Below are positions 51,959 through 63,194 of a DNA stretch of 64,000 nt, piece after piece. Source of the DNA: Microbotryum violaceum (taxonomy: Eukaryota); the NCBI GenBank assembly GCA_001244265.2, contig CDLV01000013.1, forward strand, positions 620,001 through 684,000. Direction: 5' to 3'. Under the pieces are notes generated by a model. That model worked only from the letters and a program-made list of their open reading frames with translations. It had not been told where the DNA came from and made no database searches. Every line of letters starts with the position of its first letter. Positions within the stretch are counted from its first letter, which is position 1. A program made the translations under genes and the position numbers.

Positions 51959-54358
51959 TCAAACGACCATGGAATCATCCCCTGCTCGCAAGTCCTGGAT
52001 GACCTCCTCGACCTGATCCATCGATATTCCACTCCCCAAAGCGATCAACTGGCGATACTGCCCCATCTTGGTCCCGGCGCCCAACTTGGCCGTTCGCTCG
52101 GCGTACAACCTAAAGTTCTCCTCGCGACGTTTCTGCAGATCCGCGATCTGCGACTTGAGTTGTGCTTTACGTTGATCGGCATCGGCAGGAGGGTGCTCGA
52201 GTAATTGACGGTACGAGTCGAGATCCTCTTGCGAGTCCTCCACCCCGTTTGAAGACTTGGCTCCCCCATTCAAGCGCAACTCTTCTTCATAAGCCCTTTC
52301 CCTCGCATCCTCATCCCGAACCCACTTCTCCCACCCCAAACGGAATCGATTCCCCATCTTCTTTTGCAACTGCGCGAGCAACTGGTTCTCCTCTTGCGTC
52401 AACGCATCCGCATTCGCGACTTGATCCTGCAAGAGCATGACCTTTTCCCTCGAATCGGCGATTTCGCTCCTTAGACTCGTGACGAGCGAGGTCGCTTGGG
52501 TCGCATTACGCGCTTGGTCCGCGAGTTCGGCATCGAAAGAGTCGGCGAGTTGTTCGAGCATCTTGGCCATCTCCGGAACGCACTTGAGCGACGCTCGTTG
52601 GGCTGTTTCAGAGGTGTGCAGAGTTTGTGGTGCGAATAAGACGGGTCGGGATGCTCCACCCGCTCCTTCGGGACCGTTGGCTTGTCCACTTGGTAAACCA
52701 ACGTGATTTCTACCATGTGCATCGGCAGCCTCGGTTTCGCGGTACTTTTCGTCCTCGAGGATGTAATCTTCGGCCGTCTTGCCGTCAAAGTTGGGCAATT
52801 TCGGATCGGCGTGGTGGTCGAGCAGCAGCTTGACCAATCGCTTCGACCTCGCCCGGGCCGCGAGGGTAAGAGGGGTCTCGCCTTCCTCATCACGGAAATT
52901 GAGGATGTCGGCGACTTGATCGGGGTAGTCGGCGAGACGATTCAACACCGTCTCGAGGTAGTACCGTGCGGCGTGGGTCTTACCCTTGCCGAGGGCGATG
53001 TCGACGATGTAGTGGAATACGCTACGGTTGTTGCGGTCGATGTTGACGGTCGAACGATGTAGCAGTTCAAACAACTCAGGAAACTTGCGCAGGTCATAGT
53101 TGTTGGTGAACATGACCGAGCGCATCAGAGCGGTCTGACCTATTGCGTTCGCACGGAAAATATCGGCCCCGGCGGAGAGCAGCAGTTTGACGATACGAAT
53201 GCGACCCATCGCGCATGCCCAGTGCAGGGCCGTGTGACCATCATCATCGATGACGACGTTGGCGTCGAAGTCCGCGGGCGGGTGCAGCAAGAATGCGGGC
53301 ACCTGCGTCGATTCGGAGACGAAATAATCGAGGATAGCCCGAGCGTATCGGAGCGCGCCAAGCCCTTGCTGCTCTCGCAATTGGCTCGCGTTCGAGCTAC
53401 GTGCGGACCCGTTCGCTTGCTTGCGCTTTTTGATCGGAGGGCCTCCCGCCGCGCCTTCGGTCCATTCGCCGTCCATTTCAGATCCGAGTGGGCTAGGGGT
53501 CTCGCTCGTGACGCTGCCGTTCTCACTGGGCGTCGGACTTCGGCTACCTTCGGTTCCTCCCGCCCTTCGGTCAGCGATGCCATCGTCGCCGAGGTCCGAG
53601 ACATCATCGTCCATCGGGATATCGTCGTCTTCCTCTTCCTCCTCTTCCTCGGCCAGAGCGGCAGCAGCGCGTCGAGCCGCGGCTGCGGTTGGTTTGCGAG
53701 GCGCGGCCTTTTTCTTCGGCAACGCTCCATCAGCCGCTGCGGCCTTGACGGCTCGGGGCCCTCGGGTCGGCAGCGCGGTGATGTGCTTGGGTGCGAGAGG
53801 GGGCGAGTTGATCGTCGGTTGGAAGTCGAACATGGGTTGCAAGAGGTGGTCGACGCCGTACTGCTTGGCGAGCGCAATTCCCTTTTCCATCGGGATCCAG
53901 GTGCCTGTAGGAGTTTATGGAAAAAGTCCGCATCAGCAGGGGTTTTTCAATTATATGTATTATTTTAATCTGTTCCCCCAAGACGGACCTTGGTATTTTC
54001 CATACCCCCCCTGCACCTTCTCATGAACATCCTTCTGCACCTCGCGTTCGAGCACACGCGTCCGTTGCGGCTTGTCGAACCCAGCGACCTTGAGAATCTG
54101 CGTCGCGTTGAGCCATGCATCCGACTTTCTTCGCATCACAGCCACGCCATGGCAGGGGAACTGGAACGAATTTGAAGCGACACGAACAAGAGGGAGGCGC
54201 GTATCGCGCAGAGTACGGAGGCGTTGTCAGATGCGTTCGGTAGATGGACGAGTAGAAGTGAGCAGACTGGGACTCACCTCGTATACGGGAACACTCGAAT
54301 AAGTCGCCTTGTAGATCTGGACAGCACCCGAAGGAACGGATGCGGGTGCCTTGGGCAT
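51959..54358 (-). CDS. MBP1: MBF/SBF-type G1/S transcription factor (APSES/KilA-N plus ankyrin repeats), Mbp1/Res-like
   Basis: [13 protein letters not shown]|...[21 protein letters not shown]...[17 protein letters not shown]; ankyrin [15 protein letters not shown] and [14 protein letters not shown]-terminal coiled coil. Confidence 0.85.
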
Positions 54359-54421
54359 CGTGGCTGGGGTCGCGGGCGAGCGCTAGATGTGGGTGCGAAG
54401 CGGCGGCCGAGGTCTTATCGC

Positions 54422-54734
54422 ACGCGTTGATGATACGTGACTTGTACCTAAAAGTTGGGCAAAGTACCGTTGATTGGATCCAATTCGAGTTGACGAGAAA
54501 GGTCGGGGCTGTACACGACAAGTCGCGTGCACACGTCGCCACGCGTATATGAAAACCGCGTCGATGGCGCGCGTCCAAGGGGGAATAGAAAGTTGTGTAC
54601 GCGATCAACTACGTGAATGATGGATCGCAGGTACCTGAAATTATGGACCACATACCTGGGATGTCGTTTAAGCGTGGCTTGAGGGAGAAACGCGTTCCGA
54701 AGGGGGGGCTTGGGTGCTCAAGAACGCGACGCGT
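54422..54734. promoter_or_regulatory. Cluster of MluI cell-cycle boxes (ACGCGT x4) upstream of the MBF-subunit gene
   Basis: Exact ACGCGT at 54422, 54541, 54690 and 54729, plus several CGCG near-matches. Confidence 0.6.
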
Positions 54735-55084
54735 CAAAGTCTGGGCCGGTAGGGGAGGAAGGCTGGGCGCAGCGGTCGACCGGTGGAGATATACTTGAAA
54801 CTCTGGGCAAACGCAGCAACCAAGTCGAAGCAGAGCAGAGCCTTCTTCGATCAAGGTGGCAGATGGGGGCGGCTATCGTGAGACGGTTGCGATGATGCCG
54901 TACGACGAGGCGTGGGGTGTGCCGCGTGCTGAAGGAGTGGCAGCCGCGTCCTGTGGCGACGTGTAGTTTAGCTCACGATGCACGCGCCGGAGCGCGCCGG
55001 CTGAGCCACAAGCGGCCGTAGGTCGGCGGCCACCGGTCAGCTGTGGCGTCGTGTCTCCGGACACCTCAAGAGCCCACCCCGAGC

Positions 55085-58000
55085 CGGACAGGACCGGGTA
55101 TTACAGGTGATGTAGGTCCTTTATGGGCGTCTCTGCTGGTTCTATAATGCTCTACTAGACTCGAAAAGTATGTGTACGCCAAGGGAAGACGATACATGCA
55201 GTTGGCGGGACCTTCTCATAGTTTTCGGGGCGTATCGCACATTCATAAAGTCAAGACCGCAGGCGGCTGGACATGGCGTGGTACCCGAGTCATCGCCCCA
55301 AGGAATCATTCATCAAAGCGATCATTGAGCTCCAAAATCTACCCCGAACAGCTTACGCTCCGCCTAATGGGGCGTGCCTCGGAACAAGTACGCCACCGGC
55401 ACAGCGGGATGAATGCTTGTGCGATAATGCAAGGTTGCCGCATAAGCTCGCGCAGCATCGGGGTCGGAGACATTGGCCGGTGGCGGACGATGACCATGGT
55501 AGCCGACATGCCACACGTTTCGAAACTTAGATCTGTCGAAGCTGCAGCGTGAGGTGATCATGAGCTAAGGATATGTGGGGCTGTTGGGGCCGTGAAGACG
55601 GTAAAACTCACTTAGGATCCCAAGCTCTGCTGCAGTGAGATCCGAATCGTCCAGTTGCGCCATGAGAGTGTACGCTTCGCATGTTTTGTGCATCAACGGC
55701 GCGTGGCATATGTCACATTCTCGCCGAACTGAGTGCGCCGTACACGTTGAATGCGTGTGTCGCTTGGGTCCGTCCTGAGCCGAAACGGTGTTGGAACGCG
55801 ATCCGACTGACAACGTCCCCATGGGTCGGCCGATACCAAAGCAGCCCGAATTTGCGCACACATACACTCCCAAGCATTTCGATTTGATGGCTTTGACTTT
55901 TTTTGAAAGGTGAGGGTACTTGATGTGGTGAGGACGTTTGCGGTATCTCGACCCAGACTGCTTGCTGTAAGAGAAGATGGGCTGAATGATCGGGCTGGTA
56001 TTCAACCGATGGCGCTCGACGCGAATTGGGATCGTCCATGTTCCATTGGGGACGTAGACGTTCCGAATTTCTTCTGGCTTCAATCCCGAGAAAAATGAAT
56101 CGAGGAGGGGGGGCCCTGAAGCATCAAGGCGCAGGCAGAAGGGTAGGGTCGCGGGGTTGTCCGCGTGATCTTGCGCCTTAGCCGCGTGCGGTGCCGGGTC
56201 GTTGGCTCCAACGACAGGGGTCGACTTTGGGCAGCTGCCTGGTTCCAACACGTCGGTTTGAGGAGGGCAAGTCGTGGTGATCAACGCGCCTCGCCGCTTA
56301 GGGTCGGTTGCAGATGCCCGCAGGACAACAGGGTCTCGGCTGTGACAGATTGGTGGAGGATCGACGGTGATGGACAACAAGGCGCCGAGCACCTCTCTCC
56401 GTTGAGCTTCGGTGGAGAACATCTGTCTCACATGAGACCAAAGTGTGTCAATATGATACTGGCGAAAAGTGCCGCCAGAAGAGAACCAACGCGGGGGTAG
56501 GAATGTACCTGTATCCAGAGTTGTGGAGGATCCGAAGCTGCTGCGCCTTTGGCCAGTCGAATGAATTGGGCAGAACTCAGGAGCGTTGTGTCGGCAGGGC
56601 TAGCAGACTCTAGTTCACTGAAAACATCCGTTTCGAAAATGATGTTTTGTGATCCAGATAAAGAGAACGTGCCACGGGAGTAGCGCCCGCAGGCATCATC
56701 AGCTATGGGTACCCAGTTGAGGGTCGAATTAGTGTCAAAGTTTCTGCCGAGTCGGAAATGGCGCGGCAGTTGACTGACGTGGGGATGTGCCCTTCCAAAG
56801 ACACATATTGCGGGAGCCGGTGAACACGTCTCGAAGCGAAAGAAACAAGTCGCCGTTGTAGTCGTAAGCGGTCACACCACATGTGGTGGGCTGGAATTGG
56901 CTTGGCGATGGCCAGATAGTGGAACCTCACAGCGATGCACTGTGACAGACGGGCCAATACGTAAGCATGAGATACCACTTCCGCCCTCTGTGAATGAAAG
57001 TATTGTAACGTACCCATCACAATAGACCTGAGGACGCGTGGAGACAAGCGCTCGGTCACGGATGATATCACATCGTTGAAGTTCAGGTCAACTTTGCCGA
57101 GGGCGATTTCTGATGGGAGAGCGGAAGACTGAGCGAGCTGGTATCGCAGTTGCGCATTGAAGGCGCGGTGACCTTCCATATTCGGGGAACTGGTTTTGTA
57201 ACCCAAGAGGCCATAAGAATCGTGTGTGCTCGATCCTTCCGAGGAACAGATCGATGACGCGACGCTGAATCGATGAGACGAAGGCGAGTGGCGAACTCGT
57301 GCGGTTCGTTCGGGTTCCACCTCGGACATTCTGCTCTCCGTTCGAGCGTGAGCATGATCAAACGCGTCGTCTCGTACCTCAACGCTGATGGACCCTGGCC
57401 AACCATCAGGAGAACTTGCAACGGTACCGCGATCGATCGTCGCGCCGAACGTTCGCGGCTCGGGAAACACAGGCGCTTCCAAAGACTTGGGATTATCTTC
57501 TTGAAATAAAGTCATCGACGACGCCGACCGTAACTAGAGCGCCCAAATGATCGATTTGAGTGGAATGGGCCATCAGACAAGTTCATAAATGCCCCTAACG
57601 ATGGATTATGGACAGGTAGCCGCCACCATGGACTCATCGTCTGCTTACCAAGCTGTAGTCTACTACTCGTGGGCGAGTGTGTGGCTCATGCAGCCTCTTG
57701 TCCGATCCCGGGGATAAATCCACTTCATTGATAGACTAGCAACAACATCAACGTTAGACTTTCAAGTAAAAACATGGTCTGGCGACTGAAGCAGTACGCA
57801 CACTTTGCAGTCTGACCGGCGAGCGTGAATGGGTCGCGTCAACGGAGATGTCGGACAAGCCTTGCTGGGATGACCCCGGGGGCTCAAGATCCTCATATTC
57901 ATCGTCGAGATTCGATTTCCAATAAATTATCGAGTTCGTTTCAAGCATGTGTGTTTGCGCCGAGGGAGAAGTAGCTGAGAACGCCGGCGGCGACGGAGCG

Positions 58001-58795
58001 GCACGGGGCAGGTGGTCGAGGACTTGGAGACGCGTCCGACGCGATTGAAGTCTTGCTTCTCGTTCGGAAATCGGAGGTGGGGCATGAGCCTTTGGGTTCC
58101 GCTTGTTTCGTTTTCCACGGGCCATCGGTGGTGGCTGGTGGCCTGTGTGGTCGACTCGAAGGAAAGCACCGCCGGTCGCGGGCCCGCAGATGGACGCGTG
58201 CAGCACTGACGTACTGACAGGGAAAGTGAGCCCTAATTTGTCAGGCCGAGATTGAGTCCCCTGAGTCGAGTCGCGGCGGTTGAGTTGTCCGTCACGGAAA
58301 AGGACCAGTTTGCAAGATTAAGAGCGCTTGATGCGGAGGCTTGGTACCATCTTGACGCCTTGATTATTTTCTACACCTGAAGACAGCTCGGCCTCCGTTC
58401 TCGTTGCGCGGTGCTCAGTGGTTCGGCCCCGGCCGACTTGTATCTGCTTCATCTGCTCAAAGAGATTGGGCAGACGCACCATTGGGCCGAACTCGTGACT
58501 GCGGGAGTGCATGCAAGGCGCTGTATCAGTGATGAATGCGATCCAAACTTTTGGGGCGTACTTAGGCCGAGGCAAGTCCGCCCCATCAGGCGGAGCGTAA
58601 GCTGTTTGGGGCGTACTCTCCGCCAATGAATGTGCGGTACGCCCTGCAAAAAATGAAATTGCTACAGCTTCCGCTAATCTGCATGTATCGTCTTCCCTTT
58701 CCGTATGCATGCTTTGTGAGTGTAATAGAGCATGATAGAGCCAGCAGAGACGCCCATAAAGGGCCTACATCTCCTGTAATACCCTGTCCTGTCCG
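55085..58795 (-). mobile_element. DNA transposon with long imperfect terminal inverted repeats, probably a Mutator-like element of the GCM-domain type, non-autonomous
   Basis: The first 70 bp of each end are 65/70 identical as inverted repeats. Similarity spans 55085-55246 / 58626-58795 and 55342-55394 / 58555-58611. Internal minus-strand ORFs carry a GCM-like Cys/His motif. No clean TSD. Confidence 0.75.
55527..58125 (-). pseudogene. Truncated transposon gene with basic N-terminus and C-terminal GCM-like zinc DNA-binding domain; exon structure uncertain
   Basis: ORF pieces 57754-58125 (MARGKRNKRNPK), 56703-57515 and 55565-56431 (KCLGVYVCANSGC...RP...ECDICHAPLMHKTC). After a predicted intron comes THDH (55554-55562), then a stop. 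No DDE core visible. Confidence 0.55.
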
Positions 58796-59129
58796 CCCCG
58801 GGACGTAGTTTCGACCGCACCCCTGTGTCTCACCGAGTCCGACGTCCAGCCTCGAAATTGCGGCACCCTAGTATGAGGTCTCGATCGCGATATCACAAGC
58901 AATAGGCACGACTTGTCTGGCACCATGCGCCACATTGTGACGACGACTTGCTCATTCCAGGCTCTGGCGAGATAGATTGATCACGACACGTGTATGCTAT
59001 CGAGTTTTCAACAGCACCCCTTGTGTGCTTAGTTCGACCCTCCACTTCTAGGACGATCGGGCAAGGTAGGATTCTAATGTCCCTGGTTGGGACCATGCTT
59101 TTTCTTCTTGTGCGTCTTGTGAACAGACG

Positions 59130-59902
59130 TACTTTGAGTCGAATTTTTGCAAACTGTGAGGGGATGTAATCACAGGAGGGTGAACAATCGAAATTACGAT
59201 CCCGCCGACGGTCCACACTGTCACGTGAGTCACGAGCCCCTGAGTGTGGGCCCCCCCTCGGGTCTGCTACAGCGGGACGCCGAGGCGCTCGCGCGGCCAG
59301 TACGACAAAGGGATACATGGAGAGTTTGAAGAGGTAAAGGTAAATCTCGACCTACCATAGGGCCGATCGTTGCCATCGATCTTTGCTTTCCTACATTTGC
59401 TGCAGAGTTGTCTTTTAATGGAGGGGATATCCTTCGCGCATCCTAGGTAACGGCGGTTAACAGGAGAATCATTGTGCAAGAGGAGAGCGTGGGCCGTCAG
59501 CTCCGCTTTCGGCATCGTTGCAGGGGGGGAGCTGACCCGGTGTTGCACTTAGACAATCGACCAAGCGATCGGTGAACATGGTGTCCTCGCAGATGCACCT
59601 GATCTTGTCCCACCCAGTACACTGGTTGAAAGGAATGAAGGATGTGAGACTCAGTAAATATGGCCAATGGGCATGAGGCCATTCACAATTCACATGACCC
59701 CTGGGCAATTATAGGATAGGAGGGCTAGAGTGTGACGAGGCGCGCGTGACGCCACCGCGACTTGTCGATCAGTATCACTCACATCCGTCGATTCGAAGAC
59801 AGCCATCCCACAATCCTTTTGACAATGGGACATCCGCGGAACGGTGGACGCTGCCGACTTCATGGCTAGAGCAGCGAGGATGAGGAAATTGTAGCCAACC
59901 AT
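59130..59902 (-). CDS. Small secreted cysteine-rich protein with a CFEM-like domain; 3' end approximate
   Basis: Signal peptide MVGYNFLILAALAMKSAAS. Spliced SHCQKDCGMAVFESTD|CTGWDKIRCICEDTMFTDRLVDCLSATPG|CAKDIPSIKRQLCSKC gives the C-x3-C-x9-C-x3-D-x3-CxC-x11-C spacing of CFEM. Confidence 0.6.
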
Positions 59903-60606
59903 GGTGATCTGAGGTTGCGGAAAGCCGAACGAGAAAGAGGAAGGGGAAGAGTGAAAGAAAGGAAGGAAAGGAAAGAAGATGGGCTGGCTTCGGCTTATCA
60001 AGACACGGTCGAAGACGGTCATCTCTGGTTGTACCGGCCGTTAGTTCTCGGCCGAGCCGTTGCTTGAAGACATCCCGATGAAGAAAGGTTTGGCGGAAAT
60101 CTCAAGGGGACGTTTCTCACTCGACCATTGGAAGCCCTCCTAAAAAATCACAGGCTACCGTCTACTTACCTTAAGAGGTGCTCTGAGAACGACCGCCAAA
60201 AATGGCGAAAGCGCTTTCGCTGCAAGACCAAACTACACCTGATAGACCTACATTCCGACAACCTATGGCGCAGCTTCTCCCAAAACCCTGACGACATCCC
60301 GACCGTTGAACATCCCATCCCAAGCTTTCCTACATTTTGTGTACCGTCATTCCGAGCGCTTAGTAGTTCGGCTGGATCTGGCACGCTAAAGAGAGATAGA
60401 GGGAGGAAATCCTACTGTATAGATTTCAGCGAGTCATCTAACTTTGCTCAAAGTTGTAGTGAAAGTGATGATCAGCCTCGCCTGTCCCCAGTTGCGTCGC
60501 GCTGTGGCGTGCTAGGAACGGGCCCCTGAGTGTGCGCCTTGGTCTGTGCCCCTGAATTACGCACTACGAAGGCGTAGAGACAGAGGTAGGAGGCCTACAC
60601 TCGCAA

Positions 60607-62696
60607 TTACCACATGAACCTAGCCACATCTACAACCCCTTCATTCGTGATCCGCGTCCAGGGTCGCTGAACGAAGACCCACATCGTGACTGCGTTCACG
60701 AGCCCGTAAAGCAAGCCCTCCATCCACACCGCTTTCTGTGTTTGAGGGCGTATATGGAGTCGTATGAGGACGTAAGGGATGAGGAAGTAGCGAGGTTCGA
60801 TGAGTGGACTTGGGATGATGACGAGCAGGGTCGTGAGGGCCAGTCCTAGGGCCTCGAGAAGCCGGAATGAACTCGCTTCGACTGGAGATGATAGTGCAGT
60901 CAAGCCGAATGTCAGCCTTCACTTCAACTCAGAATTGGATATGTGGTACTAACTGAGTACATCAAGGAACAATCGCCCTGCGAATAAGTACACTGGCGCA
61001 AGCAGATACCGTGCGGCTGGGAATCGATTGACGATCCGGCGTAGCACGTAGAAGGTGTAGTGCCGGTTATCAGCCAACAGGAAACGATGTAGGATGCTGC
61101 AGAGCGGAGCAGATCGGAGCAGATCGGAGCAGAACATTGTTTCAGCTTTGTGTCCACCAGGAAAGCTACGCATCTGTAGCACGTACGTGTGGTATCTGAT
61201 GCAGTACAACGCGGCACCCGTCGCCAGCGTACTTGTCACAATTCGTCTGTTCGAGCAGAACGCGAGGAATACTATTGAACCGCCGCATACTGATGCCGAT
61301 CATACTCCGATGGCAGCCCAAATTTCATACAACGTCAGAACTTACCTTGGGCTACCAAGTAGATTCCTCAGACTTCTCGAGACGTTGCTCGGTGTGAGGG
61401 TATAAGGTGCCAAGAAGCTAGTGAAGGCGAAGAAGTAGAGGGGTTGGACGAGATGGAGTGTAGGCACGTGGTTCGCCTTATCTCCTGTTGATGGTCGTGA
61501 AAATTGAGACTGTTTTTCACTGAAACCGTGGTCATGAGACGCCTATAGACTCACCGAGGACAACACCTCCGTTCCACTTGATGTACGCCGCCGCGCCCAA
61601 GAAGACGGGCAGGTACGACAAGATGATCGGCAGGAGCTGTGGAACGAACCGCAGGCCGTGATCCACCAATGATATAGCTGCAGAGGGAACATCAGCTGTT
61701 ACGAAGTACGAGTCCTCGTCTTGCTGCATCAGCGGCCGGGCCTTATTCTTTCCGATGTTTAGGAGGGATGAAACTTACCAAGGTTGGTGTTCGCCAACAG
61801 TGGGTTCTTGAGTGGTCTCTTGGCTTCTTGGCGCGAGAGAACACGGATGATTGAGGAAGCAGAGACGAAAGCAATCCACAAGATATTGGTTTGGCGAAAC
61901 GTGAGGGAGGCCGCTCCGACCTGTTAGATTTTGAAGAACGCGACCGGTCAGGCAAACGAAGACCTCCGAGAGATCCTCATCAACAGAATCCACTGACCAG
62001 GGCTGACTTGAGCCATTTCCCTTCAAGCGCAAACGACTGAGACAATAGCACGAGGACGAGAGACCCCGTCTCGGTATAATAGAGGTACCCGAAGAACCAA
62101 GCGATCGGGAATGTGGCTATGAAGATTGCTTCTGAGCTGAGGCTTAGACCGCGTAGTTTTGTTGTCTTGACAGCCTTTTCATGTCCTTTGATCTTTTGTG
62201 GCGTCGGTGTATTTTCTTGAAGTGTTTCAAGGAGTCCGGATACTACGTAGGGTAGATAGCTGAGGAAGAGAAAATTGACCGCACGTAGGCCGGCGGTCGA
62301 GCAGAGGTATGGCCGCAGCGGAGCGATGAGGTAGGCTGGAATGGCCGATATGAGGTATCTTGAGCATGCGTTGAAGAGCCAAAAGTCAGCAAGTTTGAAC
62401 ATCTCCCCTTTGAGCGAACACCGTGGCCAGTCCTCCGTGGCTCAACCCCCACATACCCCCTTTCAAAATAGAACACACTCCAGTGAAACAGAGGTTACTC
62501 ACAACCCGGGCGGAGTCGTCAACGCCGGATCCCAGAAACCAAAATCTCCTCTGCAATATGCCCGAGCTTGAGGTATATGGATCATTTCGTCCATGTACGG
62601 CGTGGGACCGACGTTCTTGAGCACCGTGTAGAAGGTGAGGAGGTTGATTGCATGGTAAGCTGCTGTGAGAGCTCCGTTCGTCTTGCGAGACAACAT
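60607..62696 (-). CDS. ALG10: Dol-P-Glc:Glc2Man9GlcNAc2-PP-Dol alpha-1,2-glucosyltransferase Alg10/Die2
   Basis: [16 protein letters not shown]...[65 protein letters not shown], terminal RFMW*. Confidence 0.95.
61105..61134. repeat. (CGGAGCAGAT)x3 short tandem repeat in an ALG10 intron
   Basis: Direct reading; the third copy has one mismatch. Confidence 0.8.
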
Positions 62697-63194
62697 GGAT
62701 CTAGAAGTACACGGATGACGCTGGTCAGGTGGTTCTGCACCTTGGGACGCGATCGGACGTGAGCTCGGGGTGGGGAAGGGAGAAGAGGCTGAGAGTCACA
62801 CCGCGGAAGACACGAGTCTCCGGCCTGAATGGGTCGCTCACAATTTTTCGAAATCGTCCCCCAGCTCTTCCATCAACAAGCAACGCAGCCCAACACCAGC
62901 AACGCAGCTCAACAGAATCGGCAATTCACAGACTTACGTGGACCAGACACAGATGACAGATTGATTTGCAAAAGGCAAAGGGTAGGTGAGCTACAGGATG
63001 GCCAAAATTGGCACGAGGGCCACAACGTGCTCGGGGAAGATCACGCTGTTTATATATAGTATACGAAAAAACCGAAGCAGCGGGTGCGAAGAACAGAGAA
63101 TGATTGGAAGAGAAGAAAGGGGAAGGAGGAGGCCTATCACAGACAAAGTAAACGTAAAACAAAGTGTCTTTTGGCCGCACGCGTCGATCCTGCA

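What the first reader, a model, noticed from the sequence alone, without database searches (positions are those of the whole stretch)
55085..58795. Long-TIR element carrying a GCM-like zinc DNA-binding domain but no transposase core
Seen: ~240-310 bp imperfect TIRs flank a minus-strand gene ending in KCLGVYVC-x4-C...RP...CxxC...L...C...HDH. Known: the GCM domain has the pattern SCLGVxxC...C...RP...CPxC...L..C...HDHP and belongs to the WRKY-GCM1 superfamily linked to Mutator-like transposases. Inference: this is an internally deleted GCM-type Mutator-like element that retains only the DNA-binding half. It could be a trans-acting repressor of its family or raw material for a new transcription factor.
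Basis: partly seen in the sequence, partly recalled or inferred. Interest (0 to 1): 0.7.

Follow-up and report, generated by a model that had tools for sequence, protein, structure and literature searches.

The report
Broken GCM-type Mutator transposon, once conserved
This is an old, fixed copy of a known kind of fungal jumping gene that lost its cutting enzyme; its DNA-binding part seems to have been preserved by selection for a time and is still unbroken in a sister species' gene model, but here it is broken by two frameshifts.

Summary
Real element, known kind. It is a 3,765-bp Mutator-like element (55058-58822, 9-bp target duplication, 7 of 9 matching) of an anther-smut fungus, with TIRs shared by 10 other loci. 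Relatives in the genome carry GCM plus a DDE core, the MuDRF architecture (Cantu 2011); this copy lost the DDE. A profile of the domain hits mouse GCM1 first (E=0.0019); folding was inconclusive. The same deleted copy sits beside MBP1 in M. silenes-dioicae and M. saponariae, where the annotated ORF is whole with eight candidate zinc ligands. Between orthologues the two presumed domains differ at 22 of 293 residues, linkers at 87 of 397 (p=2e-7), which suggests selection after the catalytic core was lost. Best reading: a transposon-derived DNA-binding gene, kept for a while, then lost in this lineage. Protein-level evidence only. The scan noted a GCM-MULE family elsewhere in this genome before.

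The parts
55049..55057 (+). Left copy of 9-bp target site duplication (TCGTGTCTC)
   Evidence: length fixed by perfect 9-bp TSDs of family copies L022 and L023
55058..55395 (+). Left TIR, shortened on its inner side by the deletion (family TIR about 510 bp)
55247..55343 (.). About 85-97 bp segment inside the left TIR, absent from the right TIR, matching 6 other loci at 81-85%
55395..55401 (.). Deletion junction: transposase coding DNA joins TIR DNA; DDE core missing
   Evidence: the M. saponariae protein P0002 ends in the same TIR-derived residues
55119..55541 (-). Exon 7: YHGH strand of GCM (His codons 55498 and 55492), ancestral-frame stop at 55366-55364, 3' part runs through the left TIR
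55542..55611 (-).
55612..56422 (-). Exon 6: Pro-rich linker, then GCM domain from about 56050 with six Cys (codons 55876, 55858, 55843, 55717, 55708, 55681); 1-nt frameshift near 55620
56509..56702 (-). Exon 5: second half of a conserved region of unknown family
56779..56939 (-). Exon 4: conserved region; 1-nt frameshift near 56919; premature stop 56874-56872
57014..57533 (-). Exon 3: Ser-rich, fast-diverging
57649..57735 (-). Exon 2
57802..58125 (-). Exon 1, coding part from ATG 58125 (basic N-terminus)
   Evidence: P0001-P0003 start at the same place
58434..58822 (-). Right TIR (homology to the family TIR reaches 58434; pairing with the left TIR reaches 58555); crossed by a spliced RNA-type contig with intron 58499-58561
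58823..58831 (+). Right copy of the target site duplication (CTGTGTCTC)
59100..59905 (-). Upstream host gene (approximate ends): 123-aa, 10-Cys protein with a hydrophobic N-terminus; its RNA contig continues through the right TIR to 58014
51959..54360 (-). Downstream host gene MBP1 (APSES-ankyrin), the synteny anchor

Best explanation
A MuDRF-type (GCM + DDE) Mutator element inserted between MBP1 and a small Cys-rich protein gene, making a 9-bp duplication (shown). A deletion then removed the DDE core and the inner left TIR (shown), before M. saponariae split from the lychnidis-dioicae/silenes-dioicae lineage (inferred from shared synteny and a shared C-terminus; at least about 3 My on a published rough calibration). 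The remaining seven-exon gene made a protein of about 750 aa ending in a two-zinc GCM domain, unable to cut DNA. Its presumed folded parts were kept by purifying selection on both branches (inferred from protein divergence). Most likely it bound the family's own TIRs, as the parent transposase did, and acted as a competitor of transposition or a regulator of genes near such TIRs (inferred, untested). In this genome's lineage it was then lost: one frameshift in exon 4 (probably shared with M. silenes-dioicae) and a later one in exon 6. Today it is a spliced, transcribed pseudogene, probably driven at least partly by read-through from the upstream gene.
For: Family TIRs at 10 other loci. Perfect 9-bp TSDs in L022, L023 and family B copy L046; 7 of 9 here. 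Paralogue on C1 continues from GCM into the start of a DDE core; P0004 carries the second-D motif; families B and C show D, D, CxxH, W, E in order. Profile of 7 sequences: top PDB hit mouse GCM1 1odh, E=0.0019, both halves. Exons and both frameshifts are in independent contigs: X1 with 0 differences over 53800-56576 and 56708-58043; X16 spliced contig of 2438 nt, equal to the sum of the window exons. Adjacent locus tags to MBP1 in two other species. Window versus P0002: 22 of 293 differences in the two domains, 87 of 397 in linkers, p=1.6e-7; 2,400 neutral simulations never gave a ratio below 0.44 against 0.34 observed. GCM alone 16 of 163: p=7e-4 against linkers, 0.027 against all the rest. 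Contrast on both branches (10/289 vs 34/377, p=0.004; 6/289 vs 24/377, p=0.008), none on the paralogue branch (p=0.39). Boundary-free block tests p<=1.5e-4, exon-wise chi-square p=7e-7.
Against: No DNA of the orthologues was available, so no dN/dS between them, and P0002 is a gene model: its 16-, 6- and 2-residue gaps could be invented introns that hide breaks. Overall orthologue divergence is 113 of 728 (15.5%) against 14 of 732 for MBP1, so constraint was weak or ended early. The exon 4-5 boundary was chosen after I saw the conservation. Window-versus-C1 dN/dS is 0.32 for GCM but also 0.33 for the Pro-rich linker, which does not match the domain/linker split. The share of conservative changes is not significantly higher in domains (11 of 22 vs 25 of 87, p=0.08). 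Pfam GCM does not hit the window ORF and hits family B only at E=0.44. One DNA run (X15) has an unplaced gap in 54006-56094, so the exon 6 frameshift may not be fixed. DNA binding and targets were not tested.
Confidence: 0.62

Rival explanations
1. Neutral fossil: a deleted MuDRF-type copy that drifted to fixation and never had a function; uneven protein divergence comes from local mutation-rate differences, ectopic gene conversion with paralogues, or gene-model artefacts.
For: Two frameshifts here; 15.5% protein divergence from the orthologue, eight times that of MBP1; TIR arms only 87% alike; abundant paralogues carry exons 1-4 and could convert them; exon 3 has 21 window-private against 11 saponariae-private changes.
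Against: The contrast appears on both orthologue branches but not on the paralogue branch; the Pro-rich linker, which only one paralogue carries, is also fast (10 and 11 private changes in 107); uniform and CpG-boosted neutral simulations do not reach the observed ratio. The annotated ORF is the same sequence in both M. saponariae strains.
Confidence: 0.25
2. The locus still works here, but as RNA: read-through from the upstream gene passes both TIRs, folds back into a long stem and feeds RNAi against the family (like maize Mu killer, recalled from memory), or the 332-aa N-terminal peptide interferes with the transposase.
For: A spliced contig joins the upstream gene's exons to 58014 and abuts the element's contig by a 30-nt overlap; the two TIR arms pair at -160.5 kcal/mol; Dicer, Argonaute and RdRP are reported in M. 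lychnidis-dioicae (PMC4469406, passage); exons 1-2 are conserved between orthologues (9 of 121).
Against: Contigs cannot show one molecule, strand or level; any element with TIRs gives such a duplex; family copies L022 and L030 are 99.7% identical with different flanks, so the family moved recently; no small-RNA data were examined.
Confidence: 0.1
3. An ordinary host GCM-like gene captured between TIRs (Pack-MULE) or flanked by them by chance.
For: Conserved position in three species and regular GT-AG splicing.
Against: The same gene lies inside family copies elsewhere and continues into a DDE core on C1; its only real homologues are these Microbotryum proteins (4 hits; 3 of 4, the fourth a repetitive chance match); TIRs and TSD enclose it exactly.
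Confidence: 0.03

Closest known systems
MuDRF elements (MuDR superfamily; Cantu et al. 2011, PMC3164196; passages and the legend of Figure S2 seen, the alignment itself is a picture and was not seen)
   Same: Basidiomycete TIR element, 9-bp TSD, one protein with a GCM domain followed by a DDE core in intact relatives.
   Different: This copy has no DDE core and is frameshifted; about 550 extra N-terminal codons; no direct comparison with Repbase MuDRF sequences was possible; Microbotryum is not among the hosts listed in that legend.
DNA-binding-only defective MULEs and MULE-derived transcription factors of the WRKY-GCM1 superfamily (Mutyl derivatives, Rcs1p/Aft2p, Rbf1p; Babu et al. 2006, PMC1702500, passages)
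   Same: Transposase loses its catalytic domain and keeps the WRKY-GCM1-fold domain; proposed raw material for transcription factors.
   Different: [quoted passage not shown]
Domesticated MuDR transposases, FAR1/FHY3 and MUSTANG (bioRxiv 10.64898/2026.08.24.746577, abstract and section 8)
   Same: Loss of catalysis with retention of DNA binding as a one-step route to a regulator.
   Different: They keep a degenerate DDE fold and have lost transposon ends; here the whole core is deleted and the ends remain.
Animal GCM1/GCM2 transcription factors (PDB 1odh)
   Same: Order and spacing of six Cys and HxH; top profile hit.
   Different: Weak score (21.5 bits), longer insert between the zinc-ribbon cysteine pairs, transposon context, no shown DNA target.

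Membership tests
MULE / MuDRF | Long terminal inverted repeats shared by a family | tested here: met
   about 240-340 bp here, 511 bp at 99.4% in L022; 12 TIR matches at 10 other loci
MULE / MuDRF | 9-bp target site duplication (8-10 bp for MULEs, PMC5499845) | tested here: met
   7 of 9 here; 9 of 9 in L022, L023 and L046. Only these four had both ends compared as a pair with a match; L059 did not match
MULE / MuDRF | GCM DNA-binding domain, by sequence | tested here: met
   profile hits 1odh first of 3 hits, E=0.0019; six Cys and HxH aligned with families B and C. Pfam GCM below its cut-off
MULE / MuDRF | GCM fold, by structure | tested here: inconclusive
   Model pLDDT 35.5; no meaningful match
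MULE / MuDRF | DDE core in this copy (autonomous element) | tested here: not met
   Homology to the C1 paralogue ends at 55401; the copy is non-autonomous
MULE / MuDRF | DDE core with (C/D)xxH and W before E in relatives | tested here: met
   Motifs read by eye in families B and C against PMC5499845; family A relatives share the first-D and second-D regions. Pfam, PDB profile and fold searches gave no hit
MULE / MuDRF | Direct similarity to Repbase MuDRF transposases | not testable with these tools
   Repbase is not held
Domesticated transposase gene | Fixed at an orthologous site in several species | tested here: met
   adjacent locus tags to MBP1 in M. saponariae (both strains) and M. silenes-dioicae
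Domesticated transposase gene | Intact reading frame | tested here: not met
   Two frameshifts in this genome; whole only in the M. saponariae gene model
Domesticated transposase gene | Purifying selection after loss of mobility | tested here: inconclusive
   Strong protein-level heterogeneity, no codon-level test between orthologues
Domesticated transposase gene | Expression | tested here: met
   Spliced contig over all seven exons in run X16, 1 of 4 runs laid; contigs show presence only
Domesticated transposase gene | Loss of TIRs and TSD | tested here: not met
   Both are still recognisable

The most novel reading that the evidence does not exclude
A short-lived domestication of a GCM-type transposase: the catalytically dead GCM protein was kept for millions of years as a TIR-binding repressor or host transcription factor, survives in M. 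saponariae, and was lost in the lychnidis-dioicae lineage, where its family then moved again (near-identical copies at different sites). This would be a fungal parallel, caught in progress and partly reversed, of the route by which animal GCM factors may have arisen, with intact and broken alleles in crossable-distance sister species.
Probability: 0.3. Interest if true: 0.65.

Novelty: new member of a known kind. Interest (0 to 1): 0.42.

Why it matters
The element type is published, and deleted copies are routine. What is worth a look is the history: a GCM-only derivative fixed across species, with signs of selection after catalysis was lost, whole in one species and broken in another. If codon-level data confirm this, it gives a testable case of a GCM-type transposase turning into a regulator, a step proposed for this fold but not, in the papers I found, shown for MuDRF elements.

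Tried and rejected
Pfam scans of window ORFs, P0002-P0004 and family B/C proteins: no hit above cut-off for GCM or MULE. AlphaFold2 of the P0002 domain (7 rows, pLDDT 35.5) and of a family C DDE region (single sequence, pLDDT 45.1): poor models, fold searches empty; this is no evidence against the folds. PDB profile search with the DDE alignment: 0 hits. ESM Atlas: no usable hit for GCM; CHRD clusters at 0.83 for the exon 4-5 region, below the 0.9 level, rejected. Metagenome scan: 24 pattern matches, 0 confirmed. Own-genome search with Pfam GCM: 0, and the control rang nowhere, so uninformative. phmmer over 1.84 billion proteins: only the three Microbotryum proteins plus one repetitive chance hit, P0005. 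No autonomous family A copy found: 1 close match of 24 to the DDE-start exon, on C1, where the gene runs into Helitron-like DNA (lower bound). No RNA holder was on record in the run list; X16 was recognised as RNA only by its GT-AG joints. No empty-site joint among the 15 joints shown of 19. No RIP-like excess (index -0.31 vs -0.27 for the window). Rejected: a 2-bp TSD/CACTA reading from the blast-defined ends; KDZ-type transposase (recalled lead, dropped once DDE motifs appeared). The first run of the protein comparison started one base off and was redone; only its MBP1 identities are used.

Full report
Observation. The inverted repeats are real: 124 nt at 87% (55078-55201 / 58679-58802) and three more paired blocks inward. 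Comparison with family copies moves the ends to 55058 and 58822, flanked by TCGTGTCTC and CTGTGTCTC. Family copies L022 and L023 have perfect 9-bp duplications. The cysteine pattern is in ORF 55565-56599.

Host. The closest proteins are named Microbotryum, and the neighbouring MBP1 is 100% identical over the region searched to an M. lychnidis-dioicae protein. The window is G000:C11 of a 33-Mb, 20-contig genome.

Family. The left TIR has 12 matches of 100 bp or more at 10 other loci (lower bound). Most copies examined keep only exons 1 to part of 4 and carry an unrelated 1.6-kb filler. L022 has 511-bp TIRs at 99.4% identity and L030 is 99.7% identical to it with a different flank, so the family moved recently. 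Only two places carry the family's GCM exon: this one and C1:1954842. The C1 copy runs on into the start of a DDE core and then into Helitron-like DNA (the Helitron label is my reading of the motifs, not a tool result). P0004 from M. silenes-dioicae reaches the second-D motif. A search with the DDE-start exon gave 1 close match and 23 at 32-41%. Of 12 loci fetched for these distant matches, 11 show the GCM motif; L046 is a 7.35-kb element with its own TIRs and a perfect 9-bp TSD, and its relatives show D, D, CxxH, W and E in order, the MULE signature described in PMC5499845 (passages). GCM plus DDE plus 9-bp TSD in basidiomycetes is the definition of MuDRF (PMC3164196, passages and Figure S2 legend).

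GCM test. A profile from 7 sequences (P0002 part, window, C1 paralogue, four family B/C copies) hits mouse GCM1 (1odh) first among 3 hits, E=0.0019, over both halves. Pfam is below cut-off. Structure prediction failed for lack of depth. The assignment rests on the profile hit and the eight candidate ligands.

Gene structure. Four of 24 listed runs were laid. X16 has GT-AG joints and gives a 2438-nt contig whose length equals the summed window exons 58043-57802, 57735-57649, 57533-57014, 56939-56779, 56702-56509, 56422-55612, 55541-55119. Intron 55542-55611 holds the HDH. The spliced ORF from ATG 58125 is 332 aa and stops at 56872, because the window is one base short near 56919 relative to paralogues; a second one-base loss near 55620 puts YHGH out of frame. 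Both are in X1 contigs with no differences. X15 has the first and one unplaced gap in the contig that covers the second. A downstream Met at 56806 could give a GCM without its histidines, which would lack one zinc site (inferred).

Synteny. P0002 (Chr7-1g09282) lies next to MBP1 (09281) in M. saponariae, in both strains, and P0001 (C008g05118) next to MBP1 (05119) in M. silenes-dioicae. P0002 is uninterrupted as annotated, has all eight ligands and ends in the same TIR-derived residues as the window's ancestral frame, so the deletion is older than the split. P0001 skips the first break by another splice site, which suggests it shares that frameshift, and reads through the second; this is inferred from a gene model. 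Published rough dates: 420 ky for lychnidis-dioicae/silenes-dioicae and 3.0-4.4 My for saponariae/lagerheimii (PMC6581054, passages); the split relevant here should be at least as old as the latter (inferred). No M. intermedium homologue appeared (weak), and TIR elements are reported absent from that species (PMC10502011, passage).

Selection. Window against P0002: 113 of 728 residues differ, against 14 of 732 for MBP1. The differences are clustered: exon 4-5 region 6 of 130, GCM 16 of 163, N-terminal part 56 of 287, Pro-rich linker 31 of 110, tail 4 of 38. Domains against linkers p=1.6e-7; GCM alone p=7e-4 against linkers and 0.027 against everything else; the contrast is on both orthologue branches and not on the paralogue branch. 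Tests without chosen boundaries agree, and neutral simulations do not reach the ratio. Against this: no orthologue DNA, possible gene-model artefacts, possible conversion in exon 3, a non-significant excess of conservative changes (p=0.08), and dN/dS against the paralogue as low in the Pro-rich linker (0.33) as in GCM (0.32).

Transcription context. A second spliced contig (1530 nt, depth 326 against 43.5) joins the exons of the upstream single-copy gene, which encodes 123 aa with 10 Cys, through the right TIR to 58014, overlapping the element's contig by 30 nt. Read-through is the simplest reading, but contigs cannot prove one molecule. Such an RNA would hold both TIRs (duplex -160.5 kcal/mol), and RNAi genes are reported in the species (PMC4469406, passage).

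Mechanism. Shown: insertion with TSD, loss of the DDE core, fixation in three species, splicing, two frameshifts here. Inferred: a period of selection on the DDE-less protein; TIR binding as its activity, by descent from the transposase. Babu et al. proposed this route for the fold (PMC1702500, passages), and a 2026 preprint argues that loss of catalysis alone turns MuDR transposases into regulators (abstract and section 8).

What is in print. 'MuDRF' returned 2 papers, 1 relevant. Listings of four further searches showed no title on a domesticated GCM-type element or on MuDRF in Microbotryum; a MULE survey has no mention of GCM (PMC6446971). The library lacks most subscription papers and Repbase, and I read listings, not all texts.

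Verdict. New member of a known kind. Interest 0.42.

Noticed in passing
L046:1200-8553 (G000:C5, about 790700-798050) and some 20 further loci: A second, larger GCM + DDE family (7.35 kb, own TIRs, perfect 9-bp TSD) with long C-terminal ORFs, and a third related family (L048, L053).
   Followed up: partly
L022:3560-5200 and 6 further loci: Non-autonomous family A copies replace GCM and DDE with a shared 1.6-kb filler of unknown origin (93-100% identical); possible Pack-MULE-type capture. L022 and L030 are 99.7% identical at different sites although no autonomous copy was found.
   Followed up: partly
window 59100-59905, minus strand: Four-exon gene for a 123-aa protein with a hydrophobic N-terminus and 10 Cys; the spacing recalls a CFEM domain (from memory; Pfam on exon 1 alone found nothing). 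Its RNA contig runs through the transposon's right TIR, with an intron inside it.
   Followed up: partly
window 55247-55343: Segment inside the left TIR that matches a separate small dispersed repeat at 6 loci (81-85%).
   Followed up: partly
window 56509-56939 (exons 4-5): About 130-aa region, 95% identical between orthologues, of no known family in Pfam or the Atlas; may be a second folded domain of the family A transposase.
   Followed up: partly
L037:3950-4900: The only other GCM-bearing family A copy is cut after the first catalytic Asp by Helitron-like sequence and has a stop in its exon 7.
   Followed up: partly
window 60550-62800, minus strand: Multi-exon gene that reads like an ALG10-type glucosyltransferase (by eye); window 49760-50180 reads like an Nep1/Emg1-type gene.
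   Followed up: no
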